Origin: Candidatus Woesebacteria bacterium
GTDB lineage: Bacteria; Patescibacteriota; Microgenomatia; UBA8517
DNA length: 64,000 nt
NCBI GenBank assembly: GCA_013426185.1
Contig: CP058602.1
Location: forward strand, 399,123 to 463,122
Direction of reading: 5' to 3'
A model generated the notes under the pieces. It did not search any database, had not been told where the DNA came from, and saw nothing but the letters and a program-made list of their open reading frames with translations. Within the stretch, counting starts at the first letter, position 1; the number at the start of each line of letters is the position of its first letter. Below are positions 7,934-23,093 of this stretch, one piece after another. The position numbers and the translations under genes are program-made.

Positions 7934-8490
7934 GTGAGAAATATGCATATTGTCAAACTAAACGATAAAGAGGTTTTAAGGCCCAAACTTTTGGGCGCAT
8001 ATGAGGCTATGGAACCTAAAAATGTCAGGTATTTGTGTAAACTTTCTGAATACATCATTCAACTTTCCACAGGGTTAAGAAAACCACACAAACATTGTAC
8101 AATTGATTTTGTAAAAAACTTTTGACTGAAACTAAAAAGAAAGTTATAATAATTAAGTTAATCCAATCTGATAATGACCATGAATTTCAGGCTAAATTTG
8201 AAGAATATTTAAAATCATCAAACATTAGTATTCAACATACTTGGATTCACACACCTGATCAAAATGGAGTTGTTGAAAGAAGCCATAGAACCGATGAAGA
8301 GGAATTCTACCAAGAAACTGAGATAGACTACTCAGATTTGGAAGATATAAACAACAAGCTCAAGCTCTGGCTTGAATATTACAACACTAAAAGATTACAC
8401 TTTAGTCTGAATTATTTGACACCCGAAGAATACCAGTGTCGCATATCTAGTTACCTCGCACGACATCAATTCGGTCCCGGATCGGGGTAA
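7934..8490 (+). mobile_element. degraded DDE transposase (rve integrase-core, IS481/IS3-like) pseudogene
   Basis: ORF 8122-8490 carries the rve C-terminal part (SDNDHEF...NGVVERSHRT...YNTKRLHFSLNYLTPEEY). The upstream 63-aa ORF is out of frame. No HTH or N-terminal DDE residues remain. Confidence 0.7.
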
Positions 8491-8501
8491 TGACATTTCT
8501 T
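8463..8501. repeat. 39-bp direct repeat (partner of 2549-2587) overlapping the secA stop codon
   Basis: The minus strand encodes the SecA tail KKCHYPDPGPN-stop. The plus strand is the read-through tail of the transposase ORF. Confidence 0.7.
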
Positions 8502-11225: not shown

Positions 11226-11468
11226 ACTCAGTGCAAAAAATATTAACAAGGTAAGTATAGCAAAGAAAACTGCTAAGTGATAATGAAGACTTAAGAAATC
11301 AAAAACAGTAGGCTAAAGGCCGTAAAAGAAAAAAGCAACCAAAGAACGCTTCTTCCTTTTTAAAAAGACGCTTTAGCCTACTGTAATTTTAAGCCAAACA
11401 AACTTAAAAGAGGTGAGGCAAACCCCTAAAAATAAGGATAAAAAAGGGTCTGCCCCACCTAATAAAAC

Positions 11469-12800
11469 TTAATACTGAGGATCAGGGTTCTCCTCACAAT
11501 ACTTCAAAATACGCCTGTGCGTCTCCTCTGGGGGAAGAAGTCTCCCTGCGCTGTCAAAGAAACAGTCTTTTTTGACTTTTTCCTGTTCCTTCCGAAGCGC
11601 CTCTGGGATTAACCTCTCGGAACGTCGGGTATAGGTTTCCAAAGGTATAACACTTATCTTTGGAAAAGGAATCTGAGGACTAGGGACGAGGCGAATTCGG
11701 GAAGTGGTATTATGATCCGCTGTCATCAGAGCAAACTGAGCTAGTGGATCCGCAGACTTGTTGCCATCTAAAACCGATACTATGTTAGTATTAGATGTAC
11801 CAAGCTTAGGATAAAAACCACCTCTTCCAACCATAGCCGCAACCCTACTTATCGCCTCAGTAGGAATTCCACCCGTAACCATTCCACCACCCGGTTCTGC
11901 TACAGCTCTAAAAGCATCAACTGCACGCGACGCGCTCTCATAAAAAGTAATACAATGGTAGTGCGCCCCAAGAACAAGGCTACGGTGGTACCCCCAAAGA
12001 AAGACCTGCCACTGAAATTCCTGCGGGACCCCCTTGGGAGCAGACCAAACTTCAACTAAGCCATGGGGGGTATTTTGGAGAAGATCTAAATAATCACTTA
12101 GGTCCTCACCACGCTCTCCCACAAAGACCAACACTGCACAAATCCTCGAGTCCTGAGTCAATTTTAAAACTTCCTTCCAGGCCTCAAGAATAAGAGTAGT
12201 TTTACCCAAGCCGCCCTCACCAAGAATATAAGTTGTTTGCCCATAACCTTGAACAGCTCCCAAAAGATAAATCATTCTCCAAGCTATACTTCCGCCTTTA
12301 TCCAGAGGGATTATCTCTTGAGGATATTCAGGCAACACTTCAAAGTCAAAAAATGGCCTATGAGAGAAAGGCTTTTGGCCATTTACGGAAGTGATACAGA
12401 CCAGATCACCCTCAACCCCCACCTCCACTTTATCCCCCATCCTCAAATTGTAATACTTCACTATAGGTGGAGGGACTTCCAAACCCCAGCTTTTCAAATC
12501 ATCCGAATTGATATCACCCTTTTTCAAAAGGTCGGCATAATCTGCAGGGTTTAGGTAGTGCGGGTAAGGGTTCGGAAGAGTCACACTCTCTCCATCAAAA
12601 GCCCAAAAACACGTGGGGCCGTCTGGCTTGACCAGGACTGCCTGAGAACTCTGGCCTATTATCTGATCAGATGGAAAAGAAGTTAAAACCCTTCGCAGGT
12701 CTTTTTCTAAAACCAAAACGGTCCTGGGAACAGGTTTATCCCCATAAAGGAGTAGCTCTTTAGGGTCAACCTCCTCCTGAATAACATAAGCAGAAATCAT
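11469..12800 (-). CDS. P-loop NTPase (GxGGxGKTT Walker A; VirB11/STAND-like, family unresolved)
   Basis: 443 aa, ILGEGGLGKTTL and a Walker-B-like VLVFVGERGED. GC-rich codon usage. RBS aaggagg upstream. Confidence 0.55.
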   Translation of the reverse strand: MISAYVIQEEVDPKELLLYGDKPVPRTVLVLEKDLRRVLTSFPSDQIIGQSSQAVLVKPDGPTCFWAFDGESVTLPNPYPHYLNPADYADLLKKGDINSDDLKSWGLEVPPPIVKYYNLRMGDKVEVGVEGDLVCITSVNGQKPFSHRPFFDFEVLPEYPQEIIPLDKGGSIAWRMIYLLGAVQGYGQTTYILGEGGLGKTTLILEAWKEVLKLTQDSRICAVLVFVGERGEDLSDYLDLLQNTPHGLVEVWSAPKGVPQEFQWQVFLWGYHRSLVLGAHYHCITFYESASRAVDAFRAVAEPGGGMVTGGIPTEAISRVAAMVGRGGFYPKLGTSNTNIVSVLDGNKSADPLAQFALMTADHNTTSRIRLVPSPQIPFPKISVIPLETYTRRSERLIPEALRKEQEKVKKDCFFDSAGRLLPPEETHRRILKYCEENPDPQY

Positions 12801-12945
12801 AGTTCCTCCTTTTTCTATTACTATTTTACCCTCGAGGACTTGGCGCTATTTTTCTTTTTGGATACGCCACGCCATAGGCTTAAAGCAAAACTTAAAGACC
12901 ATGGCATGGCGTACCCAATCGTTTGTTTGGCTTTCAAAGTGCCCT

Positions 12946-13075
12946 TCTTTAATTAAAGCTATAGAAGGCTTATCTTCCTGCTTTAAGCAAAGAAGAATTA
13001 AATTTTTAAATAAATTCTCTAGTTTTAACCAACTAACAAAAGCTAGTTGGCTAAAAAAGAGACACAGCAAGAAAG
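12946..13075. repeat. island repeat copy 1 (module 2 only), preceded by a distinct 12-bp-stem hairpin at 12862-12915
   Basis: Shares gtgcccttcttta...ccaactaacaaaagctagttggctaaaaaagagacacagcaagaaag with copies 2 and 3. Lies upstream of CDS 11469-12800. Confidence 0.8.
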
Positions 13076-13304
13076 TTAATTAAAAAGGGCGTTTACCAAA
13101 AGAAAAGGAGGATGGGAATCAAAGATCCCCATCCTCTGGGCCAAACTCAAAAATTAGAGATCCAGTAATTAATGAGACTAAGTAATATACAGAGAAAAGA
13201 AAGCACCAAAAAACTTAAAACATAAAACAAGCAAGATCGCCACACCATTGTCTTTTCAAACCTGTTGGGATCTGGCAATTCAAATCTTACATATCTTCCC
13301 ATAG

Positions 13305-13799
13305 TTACCTCAACTCCATAAACTGGCACAAAAACAAATAGTAATACCGGCGAGAAGGAAACTCTTTCCTAACTGCTGGGCCAACAATAGCAAGACTCCA
13401 ATCAAGGTAAAAAGGTATTCCAGTGGATGAAACAGCAATACTATCAACGCCAAATTCAACCAGAGCCTGTTTCGGCCAAAGGGAAGCCATCGCTTCTAAA
13501 AATCTATCCACCCAAAGAGCCAGATTACAACCCTCGTCTAAAAACTCTTCGAGAGTAATGTAGCCATTATTAGGATAGACAATAGCTCTTTCACCCTCAG
13601 GACTAGCCTCAAACCCAAGGCCTAACTTTCTAGCCTGAAAGTTAAAAGCCTCTAGAACACGATCCCTCTGATCAGGGTTGCCAAAAATCTGGACTCTAGC
13701 AAATTCTGGGGAATATCTAAATCCCCAAACAGGAAAACTCCCATCCCAGGATCCAGGAAGAAAACAATTAAACGCAGGAGCATAAATATCTGTGTCCAC
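13305..13799 (-). CDS. hypothetical protein (island)
   Basis: 164 aa, GC-rich ORF, no recognisable motif. Confidence 0.45.
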   Translation of the reverse strand: MDTDIYAPAFNCFLPGSWDGSFPVWGFRYSPEFARVQIFGNPDQRDRVLEAFNFQARKLGLGFEASPEGERAIVYPNNGYITLEEFLDEGCNLALWVDRFLEAMASLWPKQALVEFGVDSIAVSSTGIPFYLDWSLAIVGPAVRKEFPSRRYYYLFLCQFMELR

Positions 13800-13814
13800 T
13801 TTTCCTCCCTCTTT

Positions 13815-15053
13815 TTACTCCTGATCGCTCCCTACATAGATAACAGAACCAGAAGGGCCTTGGCTTTCATCAACCTCATTAGAAGATGAAGAAGTTGAAG
13901 ACGAACTAAGAACCCTGCCAGTTAACAACGAAAAGAAAGGGCCCTGCTGCCCTTGCTGCTGCTGTTCCGCCTGCAACCGTCTGGACTCATCCCTCGCTCT
14001 GAAAAGAATCTCTTTCAGACGAGAAACATCATCCATATAAGGAAGAAAATCTGTGCCGGATTTATTAATGTAGATGATTAGCAAAGCCCCAGTGCCATAC
14101 TTCCTGTACCAGAGTGAAAGGAAAAATTCCTTAAACCACCCGGTTTTGAACCTGTTTTTTACCTCCGGATCTAAATCGACTGTAACATCCTCCGGATCTG
14201 CAGCCGTCAACACATCCTGGATACCAGAGTTGACAGTCAAAGAGGTAACAGGAAGCCCTGAATGGCCACCTGAAAAAAACAGATGCTTCAAAAAAGCCCG
14301 TGTAGTCTCAGGAAGTAAAAGTATTGCTAAGACTAAAATAATGCTCCCAAAGATCCACAAGTTAAAAATACCAACAATCAAAAGAAAAACCATAAAGATC
14401 AATGGCTTGATAACAGGCATCAAGCCAAGGAGGTTCTTCCTGATCCTTAACAAGACTGAATTGTGTGTAAAGACTGTAAAAATTGTCGTCCTCCGATCCC
14501 ACTCCAGAAGGGATAACTTCACAACAAGGACCAACACTAAAAGACAAACAAGAATTATATTTGCCCCAATATTTAGAGGCAAAGGTAAAAAAAACCATAA
14601 AGCGAAAGAGATAAACCAACCCAAGATGGTAACAAGTGGCAAAAATTGCCAGTTCATCACAAAATCCACTGTCGCCACTTTTGAAGGCAGCTGACGGTGG
14701 AATAAAATCTCACGATCTCGAGCGCGATAAACTAACTTGTCTTCTTTGGGAAGCCAGAAAAAACTAAATAGCCGGAGAAGAAAACCAGGTTTCTCCTCCG
14801 ACCCGACCGCAATTTTGGAAAAGATGGAATACAACAATATTACAGCCGCTAAAGTAGCAAGGCTGTAAAAAATGTAATATCCCGCTCTTCCAAAATCGAT
14901 CTGAAATTCAGGAAGACCAAAACTTACAAGGTCTATCCCAAAAAGGCTTAGCATAAAAAGGTAACCCAAAGCGGCTACCAAAACAAAAACCAAGGCCAAT
15001 ATAGCCCCTAAAAAATTCTTTCCTTCCATAGATCTCTCCCTTCCGAAAAACAA
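13815..15053 (-). CDS. polytopic membrane protein (island), C-terminal Q/S-rich tail
   Basis: 412 aa, at least 6 hydrophobic helices, RBS gggagag, low-complexity QAEQQQQGQQG...SSSTSSSS tail. Confidence 0.5.
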   Translation of the reverse strand: MFFGRERSMEGKNFLGAILALVFVLVAALGYLFMLSLFGIDLVSFGLPEFQIDFGRAGYYIFYSLATLAAVILLYSIFSKIAVGSEEKPGFLLRLFSFFWLPKEDKLVYRARDREILFHRQLPSKVATVDFVMNWQFLPLVTILGWFISFALWFFLPLPLNIGANIILVCLLVLVLVVKLSLLEWDRRTTIFTVFTHNSVLLRIRKNLLGLMPVIKPLIFMVFLLIVGIFNLWIFGSIILVLAILLLPETTRAFLKHLFFSGGHSGLPVTSLTVNSGIQDVLTAADPEDVTVDLDPEVKNRFKTGWFKEFFLSLWYRKYGTGALLIIYINKSGTDFLPYMDDVSRLKEILFRARDESRRLQAEQQQQGQQGPFFSLLTGRVLSSSSTSSSSNEVDESQGPSGSVIYVGSDQE

Positions 15054-15061
15054 ATTTTTAT

Positions 15062-15320
15062 GGCTCCTCTTGTTTTTGGGTGAGCCTCGATTAATCTCCT
15101 AAACTCAAATTAGAGAATTAAGAAACTAATCAAGGCTCACCCAGATTGGTGTGGGATAATCTTCTTTCTTGCTGTGTTGTTAAAGTGCCCTTCTTTACTT
15201 AAAGAATAGAAGGCTTATCTTCCTGCTTTAAGTAAAGAAGAATTAAATTTTTAAATAAATTCTCTAGTTTTAACCAACTAACAAAAGCTAGTTGGCTAAA
15301 AAAGAGACACAGCAAGAAAG
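15062..15320. repeat. island repeat copy 2 (modules 1+2), immediately upstream of CDS 13815-15053
   Basis: Near-identical to 18647-18905. Contains a 9-bp stem gggtgagcc/ggctcaccc, a 15-bp perfect stem cttctttacttaaag/ctttaagtaaagaag, and the hairpin ccaacta..tagttgg. Flanked by cttgctgtgt/acacagcaag inverted repeats. Confidence 0.85.
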
Positions 15321-15377
15321 AAAAAAGAAGTGAAAGGACCGCCAAAAAGAAGGCTTTGAAACTTGAAAGCAGTCCTT

Positions 15378-16667
15378 TCACTTACAAAACAAAATAGAAT
15401 GGTCTTGGATATTCGAGGAGGCCTGCCTTAGCCAAACATGCGCATGGGCAGCCGTTGAATTCCCAATATTACCCACACTGCCTATTTCCCGTCCGGCTGT
15501 GACTTGGCTCCCCACGGCAAGATTTTCAGGAAAATGCAAATGCATTATCCCTAGTTCTGTACCGTTTTCCAACTTGAGGGTTAGAATAGAATTGCCCAAG
15601 CCATCATAAAACATAGCTGTGACAACCCCATTCATTGGAGTAAAAAGCGGAGTCCCATCAGAAGCTATATAATCATAGCCTTTGATGAGTCCACAGCTCC
15701 AACTTGTACCCTCACAGCCGGTGTGGTAACCTCGAGGACCAATGGTATACATGCCACCAATAAGGGGCTTGCAGTCACCATCGCCTCCAGGATTATCAAC
15801 CGGCAAACCTTCACCTGGGCTGTCATCATAGGCATAAGCAACTTTCGGAAAGATTCCAAGAAGTTGCAAAGCCTCCAAGACAATTTTTTTCCAGAACAAA
15901 GGCTTAAGAACTACACGGTTGGCCCCGGGGGTTGTTGCTATCGGCAATTTATCTCCAGTTCTACTCAGAAGCTCTGAGTAGAGCCGGTAGACAAATTCAC
16001 CCTGCGGAGGATAACGATTCCACCCCATAAACTCGTTAATAAAATTCTCCTTCCCCTTAGAATAGGCGTCATCCAGTCCTATCAGCTTGTAATAAACACA
16101 AGCCGCATAGGCTGACGCCCGCCTATCAGTTCGATCAGGGATAGGGAACACTTCCAAAAGTTCAGGGTAAAGCTCCGGGATTTGAACGGTCCAGAGCCTT
16201 TCCCATGTGGAATCTATAAACTGCCAAGTACCAATAGCAGTTGCCCTGTTTTTAGTCCTATAATTGGTATAGGAACTAGATTCACTAAAAGCAACCGCTA
16301 TGTTAAGGCGCGGATCACACCATGGGAAATGCATATAAGCCTCCCAGACCGGATCCCACACCTCAGGAGGAGCATAAAACTCTACCTCATTTCCATTCCA
16401 ATAGGTTATGGTGAATGGTTGGATAACTGTCTCTTTACCATCCACCACAACTGGAACGGAACGGATATTAAAATCCTGGACCCCCAGGAGTCCGGAAACG
16501 ACTTCTTCATAATGCTGGGGGTCCGTGTCATGATAGTAACCCAAGGATAAAACCATGGTTACTATCAAGACAAATAGGAAAAAAGGGGTATTAGCCAAAA
16601 GAAGAAGGAAGAGTTTAAGAGTCAGTTTCTTCATCCTCTTCCCCTTTCGGCTTAATACGTTCGACAA
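15378..16667 (-). CDS. bifunctional cell-wall hydrolase: lytic transglycosylase (SLT) + M23 (LytM) peptidase, VirB1/CwlT/PrgK-like
   Basis: 429 aa with signal peptide. SLT motif AFSESSSYTNY...AIGTWQFIDSTW. C-terminal M23 motifs GIMHLHF and AAHAHV. Confidence 0.75.
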   Translation of the reverse strand: MSNVLSRKGKRMKKLTLKLFLLLLANTPFFLFVLIVTMVLSLGYYHDTDPQHYEEVVSGLLGVQDFNIRSVPVVVDGKETVIQPFTITYWNGNEVEFYAPPEVWDPVWEAYMHFPWCDPRLNIAVAFSESSSYTNYRTKNRATAIGTWQFIDSTWERLWTVQIPELYPELLEVFPIPDRTDRRASAYAACVYYKLIGLDDAYSKGKENFINEFMGWNRYPPQGEFVYRLYSELLSRTGDKLPIATTPGANRVVLKPLFWKKIVLEALQLLGIFPKVAYAYDDSPGEGLPVDNPGGDGDCKPLIGGMYTIGPRGYHTGCEGTSWSCGLIKGYDYIASDGTPLFTPMNGVVTAMFYDGLGNSILTLKLENGTELGIMHLHFPENLAVGSQVTAGREIGSVGNIGNSTAAHAHVWLRQASSNIQDHSILFCK

Positions 16668-18615
16668 AACTCAGAAGGGGGTAGTGGAGATGCTGATTCA
16701 GGGTGACTACTAACTCACCTGTTTGCGGGTTTATCACCTTAGCCAGATGACCTGTGCCCTCACCCATCTTAAACAAAAAATTAAAGGATTGGACCACATC
16801 TCCAATAACTTTCTTAAAATCATCGACATTCTGGATAGCTATCCAGATACGTATGCCAGCGTTTGCCCCTTGAGTTACAAACCAGTTAATAGTTCTTGCA
16901 AGATTAACTGCCGTGTCCCAAGGCAAGCTTCCCAAGACAGGGTGATCCTTCTGCTGGTTCGCCAAGTGCGACCAGTTATCTACAACCAACAGTAGATCAC
17001 TCCCAGTCTGAGGATAAAAATCTACCATAGCCCTTTTAAGGCTATTCAGAAAGCTATCCAGATACGCAAGCCAGCCAAGAGTATTGCCGGACTTAAGTTC
17101 AAAAGCGACAGACCTCGTTGGAAAACCGTATTTCTTCCACTCTTCAACAAGCTCTACAACATGGCCTTCTGCGATTTTGCCATATTCAACATGAAGCTGC
17201 AATTGTTTCTCTCTAACCTCTTTGTCAGTCGGATTGTTGTTGCTATCCTCATTTCTGAGAACATCCAATGCATCCGGCAGAATTAACTCAAATACCTTAC
17301 CACCTTCTTCACGTATTCTAGTCGCAGCTCTATCCAAACGGCTTGCAGTCAAATCCACCCACACTACAACTCTTTTTGCCTGAGCCGCTAACACCTGCAT
17401 AATAGTGGATTTACCCGCCTTCTTTGATGGGCCCACAAACACCCACGAAGGGTACAATTTGGGATTTATTAGATAGGGGGTTCTGCCCACATGGCCAAGA
17501 ACCAATGACCCGTTCGGATCTCCAACGGGTATAATGGCCTCGGCCACTTGCTGCAAAATCCCAGAAGGAGAGACACTAGTCCATCCTCTAACAGAGTGTC
17601 TTCCAAAACGGCCAGGCAAATTCGGACCGCCAGGGAAAAAGGCGCGCCAGGCAATTTCCAGATCAGCCCCTGTAACAAGCTTCCAGTTACTGATTTCCAG
17701 TAACTTTCCGCTCATTGACAATACTGACTGAGAGTCACCCTTGCGCACTTTTAACCGCAGAAGTGGCGTAACAAAAAGAAAGGGTGTTCCTCTCTGAAAT
17801 TCGAGGCGGAGGAAAATATCAACAGGCAGCTTTAGCAACTCGGCAAAATTCTTCGAGCTGAGCTGCCCGCCATCCCAGAAATAAAACGACCATTGATTGT
17901 CTATGACAACCTGATCGTCTACGAACACCACCGACCGCGGCGATGCATAGTCTAGGTGACACGCATCACCCGTCATAGGGTCGTGGGAAATATAGTTAAG
18001 CTTCGGAGGAAGACCATAAACTAATGAATGGAGCCCTGAACCTGCATTACTACTGTTCAGGACTTTCCCTCCAAAAACACCACTAAAACGTGGTGCGAAG
18101 TTGGGAGGAACAAAAAGCCAAAGAGTTCGAGCAATGTGGATAGAACTATCATCGTTCCCCACTGCCCATCTTTTTATAGCATCCAAGAAGCTCCTCCGAT
18201 AGTCGTTTGCCCCCTCAGTCAGACGAGACAGGTTTCCAAAAAACCGGCCAAACATCAGGGGGTGGCAAGTGAGCACCAAGCGCAAGTCATAGCATCCCAT
18301 CTCGGGAAGCTTGAATAGCGCCGGCACCTCAACTACCTTGCCATTACCGGCGTCAAATGGGTAAGGAGAAAGGGTACTCCCGTCAGTAAAAACCAATACA
18401 GAGTTGGCACCGCTCTTCCCAACAAAGGTAGCTTGTATCTTGTCACCGTCAACCACTTTTGACGGTAATACCCTAAGACCACCAAATAACCAAGCGGTAC
18501 TGGTGTCCTCGTTGTGCCCATTTACCCCGACAACAGGGTCTCTAGGAGGTGGTAAAAGAGGCTGATGTCTCCCATTAAGACCCAAACGATGGAGTAAAAG
18601 CTGAAGACTATTCAT
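16615..18615 (-). CDS. P-loop ATPase, VirB4/TrbE-like (putative T4SS ATPase)
   Basis: 666 aa, mid-protein Walker A GPSKKAGKST, Walker-B-like LLLVVDNWSH (compare VirB4 DEAW), no TM helices. Family assignment is tentative. Confidence 0.5.
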   Translation of the reverse strand: MNSLQLLLHRLGLNGRHQPLLPPPRDPVVGVNGHNEDTSTAWLFGGLRVLPSKVVDGDKIQATFVGKSGANSVLVFTDGSTLSPYPFDAGNGKVVEVPALFKLPEMGCYDLRLVLTCHPLMFGRFFGNLSRLTEGANDYRRSFLDAIKRWAVGNDDSSIHIARTLWLFVPPNFAPRFSGVFGGKVLNSSNAGSGLHSLVYGLPPKLNYISHDPMTGDACHLDYASPRSVVFVDDQVVIDNQWSFYFWDGGQLSSKNFAELLKLPVDIFLRLEFQRGTPFLFVTPLLRLKVRKGDSQSVLSMSGKLLEISNWKLVTGADLEIAWRAFFPGGPNLPGRFGRHSVRGWTSVSPSGILQQVAEAIIPVGDPNGSLVLGHVGRTPYLINPKLYPSWVFVGPSKKAGKSTIMQVLAAQAKRVVVWVDLTASRLDRAATRIREEGGKVFELILPDALDVLRNEDSNNNPTDKEVREKQLQLHVEYGKIAEGHVVELVEEWKKYGFPTRSVAFELKSGNTLGWLAYLDSFLNSLKRAMVDFYPQTGSDLLLVVDNWSHLANQQKDHPVLGSLPWDTAVNLARTINWFVTQGANAGIRIWIAIQNVDDFKKVIGDVVQSFNFLFKMGEGTGHLAKVINPQTGELVVTLNQHLHYPLLSFVERIKPKGEEDEETDS

Positions 18616-18646
18616 AAAACTCTCCTTTCCGAAAAAAAATTTTACT

Positions 18647-18905
18647 GGCTCCTCTTGTTTTTGGGTGAGCCTCGATTAATCTCCTAAACTCAAATCTAGA
18701 GAATTAAGAAACTAATCAAGGCTCACCCAGATTGGTGTGGGATAATCTTCTTTCTTGCTGTGTTGTTAAAGTGCCCTTCTTTACTTAAAGAATAGAAGGC
18801 TTATCTTCCTGCTTTAAGTAAAGAAGAATTAAATTTTTAGATAAATTCTCCAGTTTTAACCAACTAACAAAAGCTAGTTGGCTAAAAAAGAGACACAGCA
18901 AGAAA
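18647..18905. repeat. island repeat copy 3 (modules 1+2), immediately upstream of the VirB4-like ATPase gene
   Basis: Differs from copy 2 by only a few substitutions. Confidence 0.85.
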
Positions 18906-19044
18906 TTTTTGGATAAAAGAAAGTTAATCGGCAATTAACCAAAGCTTTTTTGGAATGCTTCAAATTAACTTTCTCAAACAAAAAAAGAGAGGATGGTAGT
19001 TCCTTGATTTGTTCCTTGAAAGAAAAGGAACTACCATCCCTCAA

Positions 19045-19371
19045 TTATCTCTTAATTACTCTTATTACCTTACTGTAAGGTTTATACGACCTTACTTTTT
19101 TCCGGTAAATCACAAACCTAACTAGCCTTGTGGCTAGAAAGACTAGTAATATACTTACCGAAAGGGGTAACAGGCAAGCAAGAGACAGACGGAAAAATAA
19201 AACTACTACTGGTTTCCATGCTACCGACAAAATGCAGAAAAAGGAAACCAGTAGCATCAAAAACGGGGCAATATACCTAGTGAAGTACCTCTTCACTGGA
19301 TAGTGCTCCGTTGGGTCAAACAAAAAATATAACCAGAACCTAACTTTTTCCCTAAGATTCCTCGTATTCAT
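19045..19371 (-). CDS. small membrane protein (island)
   Basis: 108 aa, 2-3 hydrophobic helices. Confidence 0.4.
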   Translation of the reverse strand: MNTRNLREKVRFWLYFLFDPTEHYPVKRYFTRYIAPFLMLLVSFFCILSVAWKPVVVLFFRLSLACLLPLSVSILLVFLATRLVRFVIYRKKVRSYKPYSKVIRVIKR

Positions 19372-19380
19372 CTTAACCTC

Positions 19381-20769
19381 CTAGGGAATTACAATATCGT
19401 CTGAATTAGAAAGCTGGGAAATTTTTTCCCCAAGACTGGTAAGGTTGGGGTCTCCCTTAGCCTTACTGGCAGCTTGGAGAATACCACCAAACACCTTCTC
19501 CTTGGGATAGGCCTGTTGCAGGTCTTGGCCTGCCTCTTTAGCAGCTTTCCTATCAATCAATCCCTCTGCTACCTGTGTAGTAGCGTTGACAACAGGGATA
19601 ACGATAGGTGCCGCCTCAGGGGCTGCCACAGCTGTCACTAAATTTACAGCCGTAGCCACCTTACCCACAGCCGCCTTTGCCTTACTAGCCTCCTCTTGCG
19701 GCTTGGATGGAGAAGGCGTTGGAGAAGACTGGTTAGGGCCATTCTCTCCCGGGCTTGGGGGGATGACAACATCTCCGGAAGGAACATCTGTTGGCCCACT
19801 GGAAGTGAAACCACTATCCCCAGCCGGTCCAGAAGGGACATCTCGTTCAGAGCCAGAAGAGGAAGAGCCAGCTGTTAGCAAAGGAACAAATTCTTCGGGA
19901 ACTACAACTTCTCCCCCTCCGCTTCTACTAGCTCGCCTACTCCTCTCCCACGGTTCTAAAACAGAATTCCAGTCTACCGGAGGTCTTTCCTTGCTCACAC
20001 CCTCTATAGCCGTTTCTTCTTCATCCCTAAATTCGGGAGTGAGGATTGCGGCCAGGAAAGGTACGGTGACATAACAAAAGAACATTGTCAAAATAACTGT
20101 CCCCGTATAAAACACATTTACTAGGACAGTTACTGGACCAAAAGCCCAATCAGGATAATTGCTTCCAAAGAATTGAACGATGGCATTGAAAAGGGCAAGA
20201 AAAATTGCCCATCCAAAAACCTCGCCAATTATGAAAGCAATACCCTTAATTGATCGCCCCAAAATGGACCAAGATAGAGCAACGATAGCTGCAATCAACA
20301 TAACGACCTGCCACCTTGAGACAATCAAAGGGATCAGAAAAGTCAACGTAACCCCCCATGCCGCACTTGCCAAATTTCCCAAATCAGGAGACAACTCCCA
20401 CCGCATGGCGGTAAGGATTTTCTCCAGCCTAAGTTCGGCGGGTAAGACTATTTCACCCAATCTGGTAGTGAAGTCTATAAATAACAACACTACCATCGGG
20501 ATAGAGAACATCAATATCATGCTAGTTACAAGCCCAGCACTAACAACTTTCCCTCTACCCACACTACGTGCAAGGGATATAAGCGCTGAGATAAAACCAG
20601 CAAGGATTAAAAAAATCAAGACCGGACCAAGATACTGTTGAATTTCCTGCGGCGAGATCTTTAAAAAAAAGCTGTCCCGCCAGTGTCCTTCAACAGCATC
20701 TGGGATTTGACACCCCGTCAGCAGAAGACTGCCGACGGTTAAGAAGAAAAATGCCGGCAGTCTCTTCAT
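19381..20769 (-). CDS. polytopic membrane lipoprotein, VirB6/TrbL-like topology, P/S/G-rich C-terminal tail
   Basis: 462 aa. Lipobox LLLTGC, at least 6 TM helices, C-terminal low-complexity PSPGENGPNQSSPTPSPSKP. Confidence 0.5.
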   Translation of the reverse strand: MKRLPAFFFLTVGSLLLTGCQIPDAVEGHWRDSFFLKISPQEIQQYLGPVLIFLILAGFISALISLARSVGRGKVVSAGLVTSMILMFSIPMVVLLFIDFTTRLGEIVLPAELRLEKILTAMRWELSPDLGNLASAAWGVTLTFLIPLIVSRWQVVMLIAAIVALSWSILGRSIKGIAFIIGEVFGWAIFLALFNAIVQFFGSNYPDWAFGPVTVLVNVFYTGTVILTMFFCYVTVPFLAAILTPEFRDEEETAIEGVSKERPPVDWNSVLEPWERSRRASRSGGGEVVVPEEFVPLLTAGSSSSGSERDVPSGPAGDSGFTSSGPTDVPSGDVVIPPSPGENGPNQSSPTPSPSKPQEEASKAKAAVGKVATAVNLVTAVAAPEAAPIVIPVVNATTQVAEGLIDRKAAKEAGQDLQQAYPKEKVFGGILQAASKAKGDPNLTSLGEKISQLSNSDDIVIP

Positions 20770-20785
20770 TGCCCCTCCTATAGTA

Positions 20786-21070
20786 CTACGGCAACAGGCT
20801 GGGGGCGCTTCCCGAAAAGACAGAGTTGTAGATCCCCTCTGCCCATCTTACGATTTGAGCGTTGGAGAGGTTCATGATATCCCTAAAGCCGACTACCACA
20901 AAGGCCGCTGCAATTAACACGCCAAAAATAATTACCCCGAGGCCCCAAACAGTTTGGTTGCCTCTCCAAACGCCGGAGACCCCGGCTTGAGAAAACAGGG
21001 CCTGGATTAAAAAATACAGGCCAAAAACTATCATCGCGATGCCAGCGACAACTCCTACAAAAGCAATCAT
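20786..21070 (-). CDS. small 2-TM protein (VirB3/VirB2-like size and topology)
   Basis: 94 aa, two hydrophobic helices, RBS aggagag. First gene downstream of repeat copy 4. Confidence 0.45.
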   Translation of the reverse strand: MIAFVGVVAGIAMIVFGLYFLIQALFSQAGVSGVWRGNQTVWGLGVIIFGVLIAAAFVVVGFRDIMNLSNAQIVRWAEGIYNSVFSGSAPSLLP

Positions 21071-21106
21071 TTTACACTCTCCTTCTGAAGATTGGGTTAG
21101 ATTTTA

Positions 21107-21350
21107 GGCTCCTCTTGTTTTTGGGTGAGCCTCGATTAATCTCCTAAACTCAAATTAGAGAATTAAGAAATTAATCAAGGCTCACCCAATTTGGGATTTT
21201 TGTTAAAAAGGTTCTCTTGTCGCCTCAAATTTCTTGCTGTGTTGTTAATGTGCTCTCCTTTACCAAGTTAAAAGAAGGGCAACCCTTCTTTTCTTAAGGC
21301 AAAGAAAATCAAACTTTTGAAGACAAAACTTAATTTGTCTTCAAAACTAA
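21107..21350. repeat. island repeat copy 4 (module 1 plus a divergent hairpin-rich tail)
   Basis: Shares ggctcctcttgtttttgggtgagcc...ggctcaccc...cttgctgtgttgttaa with copies 2 and 3. Tail has stems aagaaggg/cccttctt and tttgaagaca/tgtcttcaaa. Confidence 0.8.
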
Positions 21351-21483
21351 ACACTCAAATAATCTTAAGTGCTTAGTTTTAAATAGGGGTGTAATTGAGA
21401 AAGACCTGCTGGTGGAGACGAGATTAAAAAACGCGCAAAATGCGTTTTAATCTTTGCCAACCACCAGCAGGATGAATTTAAAA

Positions 21484-21564
21484 TGGTGGGGAGAGGATTC
21501 GAACCTCCTTATTCCTGGAGTATAAAATTCCAGCGCTCATCCTTTCTCTTTGAGCTTCCCCACC
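21484..21564 (-). tRNA. tRNA-like gene, non-canonical (81 nt), identity unresolved
   Basis: Perfect 7-bp acceptor stem GGTGGGG/CCCCACC, T-arm GGAGG-TTCGAAT-CCTCT, discriminator A, no encoded CCA. D and anticodon regions are 8 nt longer than canonical. One fold gives anticodon loop UUUUAUA (anticodon UUA). Confidence 0.55.
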
Positions 21565-21575
21565 AATACCAATAA

Positions 21576-22061
21576 TTACCGATAACGACGCCACTTTTTC
21601 TGGCCGGCACGGTCAACAAATTCCTGCCAGACAGCAACCCCTTCTGGAATATCCTCTTCCCGTGTGAAGAAAACAGGGTCGCCACCCATATTAGCCAAGA
21701 AACGACCGGTTGGCCTTTCTTTATTGCTATTACCAGGCGTCGCTTTTTTTTGGCCCTGAGGACGATTGCCTTTTTCTTCCTCTTCCATCTGCGCGAGGAC
21801 TTCTCGCACCACCCACTGTGGGCAGAAATCCTCAAAGTTGGCGAGGAAGTAAAAAACAAGGACATCGTCCAAGGGACCCACAATAAGATCCGGAAATACA
21901 ACCCAAAGAAATCCGGCCACAAAACCAAGCTTAAGCCAACCGGAAACTCTGGGATCTTTTAAGAGCCGAATTTTAAGCTTCAGACCTTTTAAAATCTGAA
22001 GCATAATTCCAGCTCTTTCCGGATCACGGCGAACAGGGGATTTGGGTTGGGGAGTCGCCAT
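21576..22061 (-). CDS. DUF1232 (YkvA-like) membrane protein
   Basis: 161 aa; FPDLIVGPLDDVLVFYF matches the D.IPD.IP..G..DD core of DUF1232. Confidence 0.55.
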   Translation of the reverse strand: MATPQPKSPVRRDPERAGIMLQILKGLKLKIRLLKDPRVSGWLKLGFVAGFLWVVFPDLIVGPLDDVLVFYFLANFEDFCPQWVVREVLAQMEEEEKGNRPQGQKKATPGNSNKERPTGRFLANMGGDPVFFTREEDIPEGVAVWQEFVDRAGQKKWRRYR

Positions 22062-22129
22062 AAAAAGACCTCCTTCTACTCCCCAACCCTTAAATATCCC
22101 TCACGGCTGGGGAGCATCAGAAAAGGAAC

Positions 22130-22588
22130 TCAAGCCGTAGTAGCCGGCTCGGCAGCCTTTTTCGCATTGCCATTTTCGTTGTCTTGGTACTCCTTGTAAC
22201 GTTTTTGCCAAGGCCTATCTTTGATAGCTTTGATGAACTCATCCTTAACTTGCCGAAGCTGCTCGTCAGAACAACCGAGGTCTTTCATTACCAACGTCAG
22301 CAGCCAAGGGGTATTATGCCGAGTTACATCAAAACGTCGGCCATTTGGTAAACAGATAAACAATCTACCACCTTCGAAAGAGAAGTGTGGCACAGAAGGA
22401 CGACTCAAGCGAGAAACAATTTCTGCAGCCACTCTCGCAGGGCCCGCAAAGGAAACATTGTTTGGACCCGTCAGAATCACCTTCTGTTCACCCATACCAT
22501 CCCAATCGCCTGGAGTAAAAAATCTTGGGAAGACCTCCGGGTTCTCAGCCTTTATTTCAAATGAGCCAATTCTCAACGTGCCAGACAT
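22130..22588 (-). CDS. hypothetical protein
   Basis: 152 aa, GC-rich, no motif recognised. Confidence 0.45.
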   Translation of the reverse strand: MSGTLRIGSFEIKAENPEVFPRFFTPGDWDGMGEQKVILTGPNNVSFAGPARVAAEIVSRLSRPSVPHFSFEGGRLFICLPNGRRFDVTRHNTPWLLTLVMKDLGCSDEQLRQVKDEFIKAIKDRPWQKRYKEYQDNENGNAKKAAEPATTA

Positions 22589-22933
22589 ATCTCACTCTCC
22601 TTAAACGAATGAAAAGATTTTTACTGACTTACAGAACTTACAGAAATTAAAAACCCGGTTTCCTCAATATGACCTCCTTCCTTAATTGAAAGAAAAAACT
22701 ATGTGCCCTGCTTTTTCTTTTTAGCTTGGGGCCGGAATACTTTTAAACTTAATAAACAATAAACACAAAAACAAAAATAATAAAAATGGAAAACAATTTT
22801 AAGAAGACTGTTGAAGAAATAACGCTTAAAAGCATTCCTGCCCCAAGCTTTTTGGCCCAAACTACCCCTGTCTTAATTCCAATTACACCCCTATGTTAAG
22901 GTGCAATTCCTTTTTCAAGGAATAAGAGCAGGA

Positions 22934-22958
22934 ACAAAAAAAGCTGCCACAGGCAGCC
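22934..22958 (-). terminator. intrinsic terminator downstream of the VKOR-like gene
   Basis: Hairpin gctgccacaggcagc followed on the minus strand by a T7 run. Confidence 0.55.
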
Positions 22959-23093
22959 TCTCAACCACTTTTCAACTTAAAAAGATCTAACCACTTATAG
23001 GATTATGGCCTATTATAAAAAAACTTTTATTTATTGTCAAGCTTTTCAAAACAAAAGAGGCAAAACCCACTAACAAAATTACTATAAGAGATT

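What the first reader, a model, noticed from the sequence alone, without database searches (positions are those of the whole stretch)
11300..22600. GC-rich ~11 kb island with a minimal Gram-positive-type T4SS-like gene set, ending at a tRNA-like gene
Coding sequences from 11469 to 22588 are visibly GC-richer than the rest of the window, and their proteins are rich in G/P/A/R/W. All are on the minus strand. In transcription order they are a small 2-TM protein, a polytopic VirB6-like lipoprotein with a P/S-rich tail, a small membrane protein, a VirB4-like mid-Walker-A ATPase, a bifunctional SLT+M23 wall hydrolase (the VirB1/CwlT/PrgK role), a polytopic membrane protein, a hypothetical, and a second P-loop NTPase. 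This matches the component logic of monoderm conjugation or secretion machines. No relaxase, integrase or coupling protein is recognisable, and similarities are weak. It could therefore be a degraded ICE or a divergent, undescribed envelope-spanning apparatus such as an episymbiont contact system. The intergenic spacers remain AT-rich like the host.
Basis: partly seen in the sequence, partly recalled or inferred. Interest (0 to 1): 0.85.

Follow-up and report, generated by a model that had tools for sequence, protein, structure and literature searches.

The report
Divergent secretion-like gene block with RNA leaders
A fast-evolving, GC-rich 12-kb gene block in a tiny symbiotic bacterium (Candidatus Woesebacteria) encodes what looks like a very divergent relative of the type IV secretion machines of Gram-positive bacteria. 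It also carries its own copy of the RNA-handling factor Rho and an unusually well-conserved, folded RNA element repeated in front of four groups of its genes.

Summary
Genes at 11469-22588 (all on the minus strand) have GC3 of 0.35-0.58, against 0.22-0.37 in the rest of the window, and the spacers between them are AT-rich. There is no tRNA at about 22.6 kb; a non-canonical tRNA-like element lies inside the block at 21484-21564.

- **ATPase:** the 666-aa protein matches no Pfam or NCBIfam VirB4 model. A confident AlphaFold model has full-length TrwK/VirB4 as its best match, closely followed by HerA and FtsK.
- **Neighbouring genes:** their order (2-TM, polytopic lipoprotein, 2-TM, ATPase, M23 hydrolase, polytopic protein) parallels PrgH-I-J-K-L of pCF10.
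- **Second NTPase:** it is a divergent Rho homologue, not VirB11 or VirD4.
- **Not a decayed ICE:** dN/dS is 0.09-0.37, and the block lies upstream of secA in relatives whose SecA is 71-97% identical.
- **Evolution:** block proteins diverge much faster than the flanking genes, and the block is GC-richer than its flanks in every relative examined.
- **Spacers (new):** they carry a repeated, strongly structured leader of about 290 nt. It is 90-100% conserved between strains whose block proteins are only 46-88% identical. In relatives it hosts type III hammerhead motifs.

Verdict: a new variant of the known Patescibacteria T4SS-like theme, with an undescribed RNA layer.

The parts
23012..23040 (-). 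Perfect sigma-70 consensus promoter (TTGACA-17-TATAAT). This is the likely main promoter of the block.
   Evidence: 12 of 12 hexamer matches. The same promoter is present upstream of the p152 orthologue in relative L002.
22589..23011 (-). Long 5' leader of p152, containing a terminator-like hairpin (22938-22962) and a 31-nt-arm inverted repeat (22723-22849).
   Evidence: The spacer is 91.5% identical to L002, although p152 itself is only 46% identical at the protein level.
22130..22588 (-). p152, a soluble protein with no family match. It is the fastest-evolving gene of the block.
   Evidence: No Pfam, NCBIfam, PHROG or PADLOC hit. It is 45.8% identical to the L002 orthologue, with dS 2.3.
21576..22061 (-). 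p161, a single-TM protein and a conserved component of the block.
   Evidence: One TM segment. Orthologues are present in L002, L086, L087 and L091.
21484..21564 (-). Non-canonical tRNA-like element: a cloverleaf with an 11-nt D loop and a 9-nt anticodon loop.
   Evidence: Rfam tRNA model 40.2 bits against a gathering score of 29. ARAGORN does not call it. Cloverleaf MFE z=-3.4. It is 100% identical in L002. An odd tRNA-like element sits at the equivalent position in L086.
21071..21330 (-). Leader copy upstream of p94. It keeps the 3' half of P1, the conserved GCACATTAACA box and the 27-bp hairpin, but lacks the P1 5' strand.
20786..21070 (-). p94, a 2-TM small membrane protein in the position of PrgF/PrgG or a VirB2-like protein.
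   Evidence: Two TM segments. No family hit. Orthologues in L002 and L086.
19381..20769 (-). p462, a lipobox-bearing polytopic (about 6 TM) protein with a disordered P/S/E-rich tail. It is the VirB6/PrgH-position candidate for the channel.
   Evidence: Invariant Cys20 and Trp124 in the family alignment. TM prediction. There is no sequence evidence for VirB6.
19045..19371 (-). p108, a 2-TM hairpin protein in the VirB3/PrgI position.
   Evidence: hhalign against PrgI is not significant.
18616..18905 (-). Leader copy upstream of the ATPase gene: P1 long-range stem, P2 hairpin, P3 hairpin, conserved GCACUUUAACA box, 27-bp hairpin and Shine-Dalgarno sequence.
   Evidence: It is 99% identical to the copy at 15030-15319. 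MFE -120.6 kcal/mol, z=-11.4. It is 98.6% identical to L002, whereas the adjacent ATPase gene has pS=0.46.
16615..18615 (-). p666, a VirB4-like two-domain ATPase of the HerA/FtsK/VirB4 clade. Walker A is GPSKKAGKST and Walker B is VVDN, so there is no catalytic Glu.
15378..16634 (-). p429 (418 aa from the ATG that gene callers use), a membrane-anchored cell-wall hydrolase. The C-terminal domain is an M23 peptidase. The N-terminal domain has an SLT-like 'ES...GTWQF' motif.
   Evidence: M23: Pfam 6e-11, all six orthologues up to 4e-28, PDB 6e-21. SLT only at E=0.07. In this lineage a Cys replaces the first Zn-ligand His.
15030..15319 (-). Leader copy upstream of p412.
13815..15029 (-). p412 (403 aa from the ATG that follows the leader's Shine-Dalgarno sequence), a polytopic membrane protein with a soluble C-terminal part and a Q/S-rich tail.
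   Evidence: Orthologues in L002 and L086.
13305..13799 (-). p164, a soluble conserved component of unknown fold.
   Evidence: Orthologues in L002, L086, L093 and L095.
13108..13136 (-). Intrinsic-terminator-like hairpin (13-bp stem followed by a T-run) between p164 and the leader of the Rho-like gene.
12801..13074 (-). Leader copy upstream of the Rho-like gene. The P1 3' strand is degenerate. The 74-aa ORF at 12846-13070 lies inside this leader and is spurious.
   Evidence: It is 72% identical to the other copies over a 209-nt register. The '74-aa ORF' matches the other spacers of L002.
11469..12800 (-). p443, a divergent Rho-family hexameric RNA translocase with a non-canonical N-terminal region of about 110 aa.
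   Evidence: PDB Rho 2e-9 for the single sequence and 4e-21 for the family profile. NCBIfam Rho 34.6 bits against a cutoff of 315. It lies at the same end of the block in L091, L093 and L095. NCBI names it Rho, QLG69637.1.

Best explanation
The block spans about 11.47-23.04 kb and sits in the chromosome of a Candidatus Woesebacteria (Microgenomatia, Patescibacteria) genome. It is specific to a small lineage and evolves fast. I read it as the genes for a minimal machine that spans a single-membrane (monoderm) cell envelope, built around a very divergent VirB4-family ATPase.

Inferred working model:
- The soluble ATPase p666 docks on a membrane platform made of the polytopic lipoprotein p462 (VirB6/PrgH position), the 2-TM hairpin p108 (VirB3/PrgI position) and p94.
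- The membrane-anchored hydrolase p429 opens the cell wall locally.
- p412, p164 and p161 are lineage-specific accessory parts.
- The substrate and the direction of transport are unknown. There is no relaxase or coupling protein, so plasmid conjugation is unlikely. Exchange of protein, DNA or nucleotides at the contact with a host cell is the most likely use, as proposed for the canonical Patescibacteria T4SS.

Expression appears to be organised at the RNA level:
- One consensus promoter lies upstream of p152.
- A tRNA-like element and four copies of a highly structured leader of about 290 nt divide the block into modules: p94-p462-p108, p666-p429, p412-p164 and p443.
- In relatives the same leader scaffold holds a type III hammerhead motif, which argues for intercistronic RNA processing.
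- The last module encodes a dedicated Rho paralogue. I infer, without a direct test, that it acts on these leader RNAs.

Shown: composition, gene content, the ATPase fold, the M23 domain, Rho homology, synteny, selection, and the repetition, structure and conservation of the leader. Inferred: that the parts assemble into one machine, what the substrate is, that the RNA is processed in this genome, and the link between the Rho paralogue and the leaders.
For: - **Gene order.** The order parallels pCF10 PrgH-PrgI-PrgJ-PrgK-PrgL. It is conserved in distant family members L086, L087, L091 and L093.
- **Hydrolase.** The M23 hydrolase lies immediately downstream of the ATPase in every locus that holds DNA downstream of it.
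- **Genes are functional.** dN/dS is 0.09-0.37.
- **Stable location.** The block is upstream of secA in lineages with SecA identity of 97.5%, 73% and 71%.
- **Organism and precedent.** The source is a Woesebacteria genome. Relaxase-less, MPF-FATA-like T4SS are known to be widespread in Patescibacteria, with VirB6 'scarce' in Microgenomatia, which the authors attribute to extreme divergence (PMC12102498).
- **RNA layer.** There are four leader copies and none elsewhere in the window. Independent MFE folds of 17 copies from 7 sources mostly give the same P1/P2 architecture. RNAalifold finds 6 pairs with compensatory changes. The leader's fold has z=-11.4. The spacers are 90-100% identical between strains whose adjacent genes have pS 0.24-0.71. 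Hammerhead_3 is the top Rfam hit in the L087 leader (33.9 bits) and the L091 leader (21.1 bits), with the full catalytic core present.
- **Rho paralogue.** It belongs to the block: it has the block's GC content, its own leader copy and a fast rate of change, and it is linked to the block in L091, where the flank is ThrRS rather than SecA.
Against: - No sequence model recognises VirB4, VirB6, VirB3, VirB8 or VirD4 in the block. hhalign of the ATPase family against PrgJ gives only 11% probability.
- The Walker B catalytic Glu that defines VirB4, HerA and FtsK is replaced by Asn here, and by Asp or Asn across the family.
- No structures could be predicted for the membrane proteins, so their roles rest on size, topology and position.
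- The window's own leaders contain no hammerhead core, so RNA self-cleavage is not shown for this genome.
- Whether the genome also has a canonical VirB4 or a canonical Rho elsewhere could not be checked.
- The persistent GC excess of the block in every lineage is not explained by this model.
Confidence: 0.55

Rival explanations
1. The block is an integrated mobile element: an ICE remnant, an integrated plasmid or an unrecognised virus-like element. It keeps its own base composition and uses a VirB4/HerA-type ATPase for transfer or packaging.
For: - The block is GC-richer than its flanks in all relatives examined.
- tRNA or tRNA-like genes lie in or at the edge of the block: two tRNAs at the boundary in L091, one in L095 and a tRNA-like element in the window.
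- Hammerhead motifs are present. These are often found in phage or mobile DNA (my own knowledge).
- Transposase or integrase fragments lie nearby: rve_3 at 8122-8490 and Y1_Tnp in L001 and L087.
- The flanks differ in L087 and L091.
- The best BFVD match is a phage G protein (E=7e-12).
- dS is higher in several block genes than in the flanks, which suggests allelic replacement.
Against: - No integrase, relaxase, replication, capsid or terminase gene was found.
- No flanking direct repeat longer than 10 nt exists.
- The position upstream of secA is the same across lineages with 71-97% SecA identity.
- All genes are under purifying selection.
- The leader 24-mer is absent from 2.9 million viral contigs.
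- No homologue was found in the 80 secA loci from other species.
Confidence: 0.15
2. The machine is not a T4SS relative but a different apparatus driven by a HerA/FtsK-clade ATPase. One possibility is a DNA or nucleotide import system analogous to the archaeal Ced system. Another is a novel surface-structure assembly system. In either case the similarity to VirB4 would reflect only the shared ATPase clade.
For: - No VirB4 sequence signature is present, and Walker B is atypical.
- No T4SS accessory family was detected.
- Patescibacteria depend on imported nucleotides (general knowledge; PMC12102498 discusses possible non-conjugative roles).
Against: - The PrgH-I-J-K-like gene order and the adjacent wall hydrolase are typical of monoderm T4SS.
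- No NurA, Sir2 or nuclease partner of HerA is present.
Confidence: 0.2
3. The block is an anti-phage or anti-competitor defence island built on a HerA-like ATPase.
For: HerA-type ATPases of defence systems are among the structural hits. The block shows rapid evolution and a mosaic pattern of dS.
Against: None of the ten proteins has a PADLOC hit. There is no nuclease, Sir2 or other effector domain. Five membrane proteins and a wall hydrolase do not fit known HerA defence systems.
Confidence: 0.03

Closest known systems
Patescibacteria T4SS (monophyletic VirB4 clade nested in MPF-FATA; Quinonero-Coronel et al. 2025, PMC12102498)
   Same: Both occur in the same phylum and lie on the chromosome. 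Both lack a relaxase and have no coupling protein next to the ATPase. Both combine small membrane proteins, a polytopic protein and a VirB1-role hydrolase that may carry an M23 domain. That paper reports VirB6 as scarce, and VirB3 as rarely linked to virB4, in Microgenomatia.
   Different: The canonical system's VirB4 is found by HMM in about 80% of genomes and often lies near dnaA. Here no Pfam or NCBIfam model sees the ATPase, which is 666 aa long with a D-N Walker B. The family has only 41 clusters at 50% identity among 1.84 billion representatives. The block lies next to secA, is compositionally distinct, and carries a Rho paralogue, structured leaders and a tRNA-like element. The paper does not mention these features in the sections I read.
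pCF10 Prg/Pcf T4SS of Enterococcus faecalis (PrgH-PrgI-PrgJ-PrgK-PrgL)
   Same: The order is collinear: polytopic membrane protein, small 2-TM protein, VirB4-type ATPase, wall hydrolase, further membrane protein. Small membrane proteins lie upstream.
   Different: No significant profile similarity exists: PrgJ 11%, PrgH 0.2% and PrgI 0.8% hhalign probability. The hydrolase here is M23 plus a possible SLT, whereas PrgK has LytM, SLT and CHAP domains. There is no PcfC coupling protein, relaxase or adhesin.
HerA/FtsK-clade hexameric translocases
   Different: The N-terminal domain aligns with VirB4 rather than with the N-terminal region of HerA. No NurA or nuclease partner is present. The genomic context is membrane proteins.
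Transcription termination factor Rho
   Same: Homology runs from the second half of the OB fold to the C-terminus (profile E=4e-21). Walker A, the 'GER' catalytic Glu-Arg, the Ser-x-x-Arg Walker B region, the GG loop, 'FPxI' and a 'TRR' Arg-finger region are all conserved.
   Different: The score is far below NCBIfam's Rho cutoff (34.6 against 315 bits). The first roughly 110 residues, which would hold the N-terminal helix bundle and the first part of the primary RNA-binding site, are unrelated. Relatives carry extensions to 600-705 aa. Only 8 clusters exist in 5.8 billion proteins, all linked to this block.
Type III hammerhead ribozymes in bacterial and phage intergenic regions (Rfam RF00008)
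   Same: Leaders in relatives L086, L087, L091 (four copies) and L092 have a cleavage triplet (GUC, GUA, GUU or CUC), a stem I hairpin, the CUGAnGA core, a stem II hairpin and GAAA closed by stem III.
   Different: Scores are below Rfam's gathering score (33.9 and 21.1 against 48.5). The motifs are nested inside a larger conserved scaffold (P1 stem plus GCACAUUAACA box) that is not in Rfam. The window's own copies have a plain hairpin in that place.

Membership tests
VirB4-based type IV secretion system (MPF-FATA / Patescibacteria clade) | An ATPase recognised by VirB4 sequence models | tested here: not met
   There is no Pfam or NCBIfam VirB4-type hit for p666 or for any of 36 family members. 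hhalign against PrgJ gives 11% probability, aligned only around Walker A. The PDB profile search gives P-loop-only hits.
VirB4-based type IV secretion system (MPF-FATA / Patescibacteria clade) | Two-domain VirB4 fold (N-terminal domain plus RecA-like C-terminal domain) | tested here: met
VirB4-based type IV secretion system (MPF-FATA / Patescibacteria clade) | Walker B with a catalytic Glu (hhhhDE) | tested here: not met
   The family column is D followed by N (18 of 36) or D (18 of 36), never E. The window has VVDN.
VirB4-based type IV secretion system (MPF-FATA / Patescibacteria clade) | VirB6/PrgH-type polytopic channel protein and VirB3/PrgI-type 2-TM protein next to virB4 | tested here: inconclusive
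   Topology and position fit. There is no sequence support.
VirB4-based type IV secretion system (MPF-FATA / Patescibacteria clade) | Peptidoglycan hydrolase (VirB1 role) encoded with the system | tested here: met
   An M23 domain lies directly downstream of the ATPase in all loci that hold DNA downstream of it. The SLT domain is only weak (E=0.07).
VirB4-based type IV secretion system (MPF-FATA / Patescibacteria clade) | Coupling protein (VirD4/TcpA) and, for conjugation, a relaxase | tested here: not met
   Neither is present in the block or in the 64-kb window ORFs that I scanned. The rest of the genome was not available.
Integrative conjugative element | Integrase or recombinase, relaxase, and flanking att direct repeats | tested here: not met
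   No such domains were found. The longest repeat shared by the two boundaries is 10 nt. The only related feature is an rve_3 fragment beyond secA.
Transcription termination factor Rho | Full-length match to the Rho equivalog model, including the N-terminal primary RNA-binding domain | tested here: not met
   NF006886 scores 34.6 bits against a cutoff of 315, and TIGR00767 scores 23.9 against 509. The alignment to Rho begins at Rho residue 81-92, and the first 110 aa do not align.
Transcription termination factor Rho | Rho-type RecA ATPase domain with a closer match to Rho than to F1 or T3SS ATPases | tested here: met
   The family profile gives E=4e-21 to 1e-16 against Rho structures, 1e-6 against T3SS ATPases and 3e-3 against F1 alpha.
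Hammerhead ribozyme, type III (in related loci only) | Conserved catalytic core with three stems, and a score above Rfam's gathering threshold | tested here: inconclusive
   Core and stems are present, and RF00008 is the top hit, but the scores of 33.9 and 21.1 bits are below the gathering score of 48.5. There is no core in the window's own spacers. Self-cleavage cannot be tested with these tools.
tRNA | Cloverleaf with a 7-nt anticodon loop, accepted by tRNA finders | tested here: inconclusive
   The Rfam tRNA model scores 40.2 bits, above the gathering score of 29. ARAGORN does not call it, and the fold has a 9-nt anticodon loop and an 11-nt D loop.

The most novel reading that the evidence does not exclude
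The block is a self-contained 'operon of modules' with two unusual layers.

First, an undescribed class of structured intercistronic leader RNA, together with a tRNA-like element and a dedicated Rho paralogue, processes and gates the transcript of a fast-evolving contact or secretion machine. The leader has a 13-bp closing stem, a GCACAUUAACA box, and a P2 arm that is either a plain hairpin or a hammerhead ribozyme.

Second, the near-identical leaders also act as homologous-recombination anchors. Divergent protein-coding cassettes are swapped between strains through them. This would explain the mosaic dS, the ultraconserved spacers and, through biased gene conversion, the persistent GC excess.
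Probability: 0.25. Interest if true: 0.88.

Novelty: new variant of a known kind. Interest (0 to 1): 0.7.

Why it matters
- **Detection gap for secretion systems.** Patescibacteria are obligate episymbionts, and their T4SS-like genes are essential for growth on the host in the one genetically tractable case (cited in PMC12102498). This block shows that some Microgenomatia carry a VirB4-family machine so divergent that HMM surveys miss it. Censuses of 'T4SS-negative' genomes may therefore undercount such systems.
- **Link between a secretion-like machine and RNA control.** The block ties the machine to a private Rho paralogue and to a conserved structured RNA that alternates with hammerhead ribozymes. 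This gives a concrete, testable case for two open questions: what bacterial hammerheads do, and how gene expression is organised in CPR genomes that have few classical regulators.
- **An unusual evolutionary pattern.** Spacers are ultraconserved, coding cassettes diverge fast, and the GC excess persists in every lineage. This pattern deserves a population-genomic explanation.

Tried and rejected
- **Shallow structure prediction.** Predicting p666 from a 3-sequence alignment gave pLDDT 34 and was unusable. It worked only after the exhaustive representative search supplied 36 homologues.
- **AFDB50 fold search.** The library was unavailable.
- **Sequence routes to T4SS parts.** Pfam, NCBIfam and PHROGs on all ten proteins and on orthologue sets, PDB profile searches, and hhalign against PrgJ, PrgH and PrgI gave nothing significant.
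- **GTDB genome scan with the ATPase.** It found no relatives. This method needs exact short peptides, so it is weak evidence of absence.
- **Rfam at the gathering threshold.** It found no known RNA in the leaders. Relaxed searches gave only miRNA-like hits to the long hairpin, which I regard as chance hairpin matches.
- **The conserved TTAACA box as a -35 element.** The matching -10 (GATTAT) exists only in the window and L002 copies and not in L086 or L093, so I rejected this idea.
- **The 74-aa ORF at 12846-13070.** I rejected it as a gene because it is a translated leader copy.
- **Defence-system reading.** PADLOC found nothing.
- **Boundary att repeats.** None were found.
- **Last protein search.** Using the p462 membrane domain as query returned a single fragment.

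Full report
**1. The observation**

A 1-kb composition profile shows GC of 0.39-0.47 from 9 to 23 kb, against about 0.30-0.39 in most of the rest of the window. Four isolated 1-kb windows elsewhere reach 0.40-0.42. The drop at 23 kb is sharp.

Per gene, the ten block ORFs on the minus strand (11469-22588) have GC 0.38-0.51 and GC3 0.35-0.58. Thirty-eight other ORFs have GC3 0.22-0.37. The block's proteins tend to be richer in G, A, R and P, though the ranges overlap. The spacers inside the block have GC 0.33-0.37. SecA (8466-11249) is mildly raised.

It omits two ORFs at the start of the block, p152 and p161.

No tRNA lies at about 22.6 kb. A relaxed Rfam search finds a tRNA-like element at 21484-21564 on the minus strand (40.2 bits). 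It folds as a cloverleaf with an 11-nt D loop and a 9-nt anticodon loop.

**2. Organism and distribution**

The Rho-like and ATPase proteins are identical to QLG69637.1 and QLG69643.1 of a Candidatus Woesebacteria MAG, on an 818,817-bp contig. The closest SecA among 185,579 species representatives is only 56% identical and comes from Levyibacteriota and Collierbacteria.

The ATPase has three hits in the word-indexed 5.8-billion-protein database. An exhaustive HMMER scan of 1.84 billion representatives finds 41 clusters. The Rho-like protein has eight hits. None of the 80 secA loci from other species contains block homologues, apart from generic M23 matches.

**3. The ATPase**

No Pfam, NCBIfam, PHROG or PADLOC family matches p666. 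The same holds for 36 family members, which give only generic P-loop matches.

With the 36-sequence alignment, AlphaFold2 gives pLDDT 88.9 and pTM 0.84.
- Foldseek against the PDB ranks full-length TrwK/VirB4 of R388 first (E=6e-9, 766 columns, TMq 0.40). HerA (5e-6), FtsK, TcpA and EccC follow.

The ATPase therefore belongs to the HerA/FtsK/VirB4 clade, and only VirB4 also matches its N-terminal half.

At the sequence level, hhalign against PrgJ reaches only 11% probability. Walker A is G-P-S-K-x-x-G-K-[ST]-T with an invariant Lys. Walker B is hhhh-D-[N/D], never the D-E of VirB4, HerA and FtsK. Hydrolysis may therefore be slow, or catalysed in a different way. This last point is an inference.

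**4. The other proteins**

- **p429.** It has a solid M23 domain. In this lineage Cys replaces the first His ligand. The SLT match is weak (E=0.07), with an 'ES...GTWQF' motif.
- **Membrane proteins.** p462 has an invariant lipobox Cys, about six TM segments, an invariant loop Trp and a disordered P/S/E-rich tail. p108 and p94 are 2-TM proteins, and p412 is polytopic. None has sequence similarity to VirB6, VirB3 or VirB2.
- **Gene order.** Their order around the ATPase and hydrolase matches PrgH-PrgI-PrgJ-PrgK-PrgL of pCF10. Searches show that the order is kept in distant family members:

| Locus | ATPase identity to the window |
|---|---|
| L086 | 39% |
| L087 | 33% |
| L091 | 27% |
| L093 | 23% |

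- **p443.** It is a Rho homologue. The single sequence hits Rho structures at 2e-9, and the nine-member profile hits them at 4e-21 over Rho residues about 81-390. T3SS ATPases reach only 1e-6. It falls far below NCBIfam's Rho cutoff, and its first 110 residues are unrelated to Rho. It lies at the same end of the block in L091 (30% identity, E=7e-42), L093 and L095. It shares the block's composition and has its own leader copy.

**5. Not a decaying element**

Searches compare the window with relative L002:

| Region | Protein identity | dN/dS | dS |
|---|---|---|---|
| Flanking genes (VKOR; SecA) | 94.5%; 97.5% | 0.09; 0.07 | 0.31; 0.17 |
| Block genes | 46-88% | 0.09-0.37 | 0.29 to 2.3, a mosaic range |

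The block lies upstream of secA also in L093/L094 and L095, where SecA is 71-73% identical. In those loci the Rho-like protein is 38-56% identical and the ATPase 23%.

L086 shares the methyltransferase flank. L087 and L091 have other flanks.

In every locus the block is GC-richer than its flanks. The extreme case is L091, with GC3 of 0.53-0.73 in the block against 0.27-0.44 in the flanks.

No att-like repeats bound the block. The persistent GC excess remains unexplained. Repeated allelic replacement with biased gene conversion is one hypothesis.

**6. The spacers**

An apparent 74-aa ORF in one spacer matched three other spacers of L002. This led to the finding of a repeated element.
- **Copies.** A sequence of about 290 nt occurs on the coding strand directly upstream of p94, p666, p412 and p443. 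The p666 and p412 copies are 99% identical. There is no copy elsewhere in the window.
- **Conserved pairing.** The 5' motif UUUCUUGYUGUGUCUCU is conserved in L002, L086, L087, L093, L094 and L095. It pairs with a downstream ACACARCAAGAAA that follows an invariant GCACAUUAACA box. The pairing shows a C:G to U:A compensation and a U-G wobble.
- **Structure.** Independent MFE folds of 17 copies mostly give the same P1/P2 architecture. RNAalifold on nine distinct copies finds six pairs with double changes. The full leader folds at -120.6 kcal/mol, with z=-11.4.
- **Conservation.** Between the window and L002 the spacers are 90-100% identical and the tRNA-like element is 100% identical. The adjacent genes differ at 24-71% of synonymous sites.
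- **Hammerheads in relatives.** In L086, L087 and L092 (upstream of the ATPase) and four times in L091, the P2 position holds a type III hammerhead motif with a complete core. RF00008 is the top Rfam hit at 33.9 and 21.1 bits, below the gathering score. The window's copies have a plain hairpin there and no hammerhead core.
- **Rarity.** The leader 24-mer occurs in only four JGI contigs and in no viral contig.
- **Other signals.** A perfect sigma-70 promoter lies at 23040-23012 and is conserved in L002. A strong terminator-like hairpin precedes the leader of the Rho-like gene.

**7. Interpretation**

The best reading is a T4SS-like envelope machine that is specific to one lineage and fixed in the chromosome, built on a very divergent VirB4-family ATPase (confidence about 0.55). 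Its expression is organised by conserved leader RNAs, a tRNA-like element and a private Rho paralogue.

The link between the Rho paralogue and the leaders, and RNA processing in this particular genome, are inferences.

Rivals are a different HerA/FtsK-driven machine (0.2), an integrated mobile or viral element (0.15) and a defence island (0.03).

Compared with the published Patescibacteria T4SS (PMC12102498), this is a new variant:
- it is invisible to the HMMs tried here (Pfam and NCBIfam);
- it lies in a different locus;
- its composition differs from the host genome;
- it has an RNA layer that is not in Rfam.

Noticed in passing
window 12801-13074, 15030-15319, 18616-18905, 21071-21330 (minus strand): A repeated, highly structured leader of about 290 nt lies in front of four gene modules. 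It is not in Rfam and is more conserved between strains than the genes it separates. This became part of the main finding.
   Followed up: yes
L087 7684-7765; L091 8689, 12518, 15420, 16924; L086 about 8173-8250; L092 about 385-455: Type III hammerhead ribozyme motifs are nested in the leader scaffold of related loci, mostly upstream of the ATPase gene. Rfam scores are below the gathering threshold, but the catalytic core is complete.
   Followed up: partly
window 21484-21564 (minus strand): A tRNA-like cloverleaf with a 9-nt anticodon loop is missed by ARAGORN and by the whole-window Rfam run. It is 100% identical in L002. An odd tRNA-like element with a 23-nt insert sits at the same relative place in L086.
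   Followed up: partly
L083 (JGI contig Ga0484001_0000047), end of contig: A 352-kb JGI contig from a metagenome assembly ends 157 nt upstream of the ATPase gene, inside the leader repeat. The near-identical leader copies probably break short-read assemblies.
   Followed up: no
L093 3857-4130 against L094 4045-4195; L093 6413-6650 against L094 6484-6637: Closely related strains differ in the length of the variable inner arm of the same leader: the distance from the 5' motif to the 3' box is 252 against 129 nt, and 216 against 132 nt. The arm seems to gain or lose hairpin modules.
   Followed up: no
window 8122-8490 (plus strand): A 122-aa ORF at the 3' end of secA corresponds to a gene that the collection's precomputed Pfam annotation of locus L083 marks as an rve_3/rve_2 integrase-core fragment. 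It looks like an IS remnant beside the block.
   Followed up: no
L091 130-303 and 1008-4800: In the most GC-rich relative the block starts right after tRNA-Val and tRNA-Ala. It contains an extra 662-aa protein and a 282-aa protein with an RNA polymerase alpha C-terminal domain, which is another transcription-related part.
   Followed up: no
window 15378-16634 (p429), around residue 325: In the window, L002 and L086 lineage, the first zinc-ligand His of the M23 HxxxD motif is replaced by Cys and there is a 3-residue insertion. The HxH motif is kept.
   Followed up: no
window 18616-18640 and 18906-18925 (minus strand): In the MFE fold, the Shine-Dalgarno sequence of the ATPase gene (GGAAAGGAGAG) pairs with a pyrimidine tract just 5' of the leader. 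This suggests translational occlusion.
   Followed up: no
window 22062-22129 and 22130-22588: The 68-nt spacer between p152 and p161 is 100% identical to L002, while p152 itself is only 46% identical (dS 2.3). This is an extreme mosaic boundary.
   Followed up: partly
window 41061-42629 (minus strand): A 522-aa ORF has no Pfam family at E<=1e-5. It lies among housekeeping genes (aminoacyl-tRNA synthetases, RelA/SpoT, RecJ, SecD).
   Followed up: no
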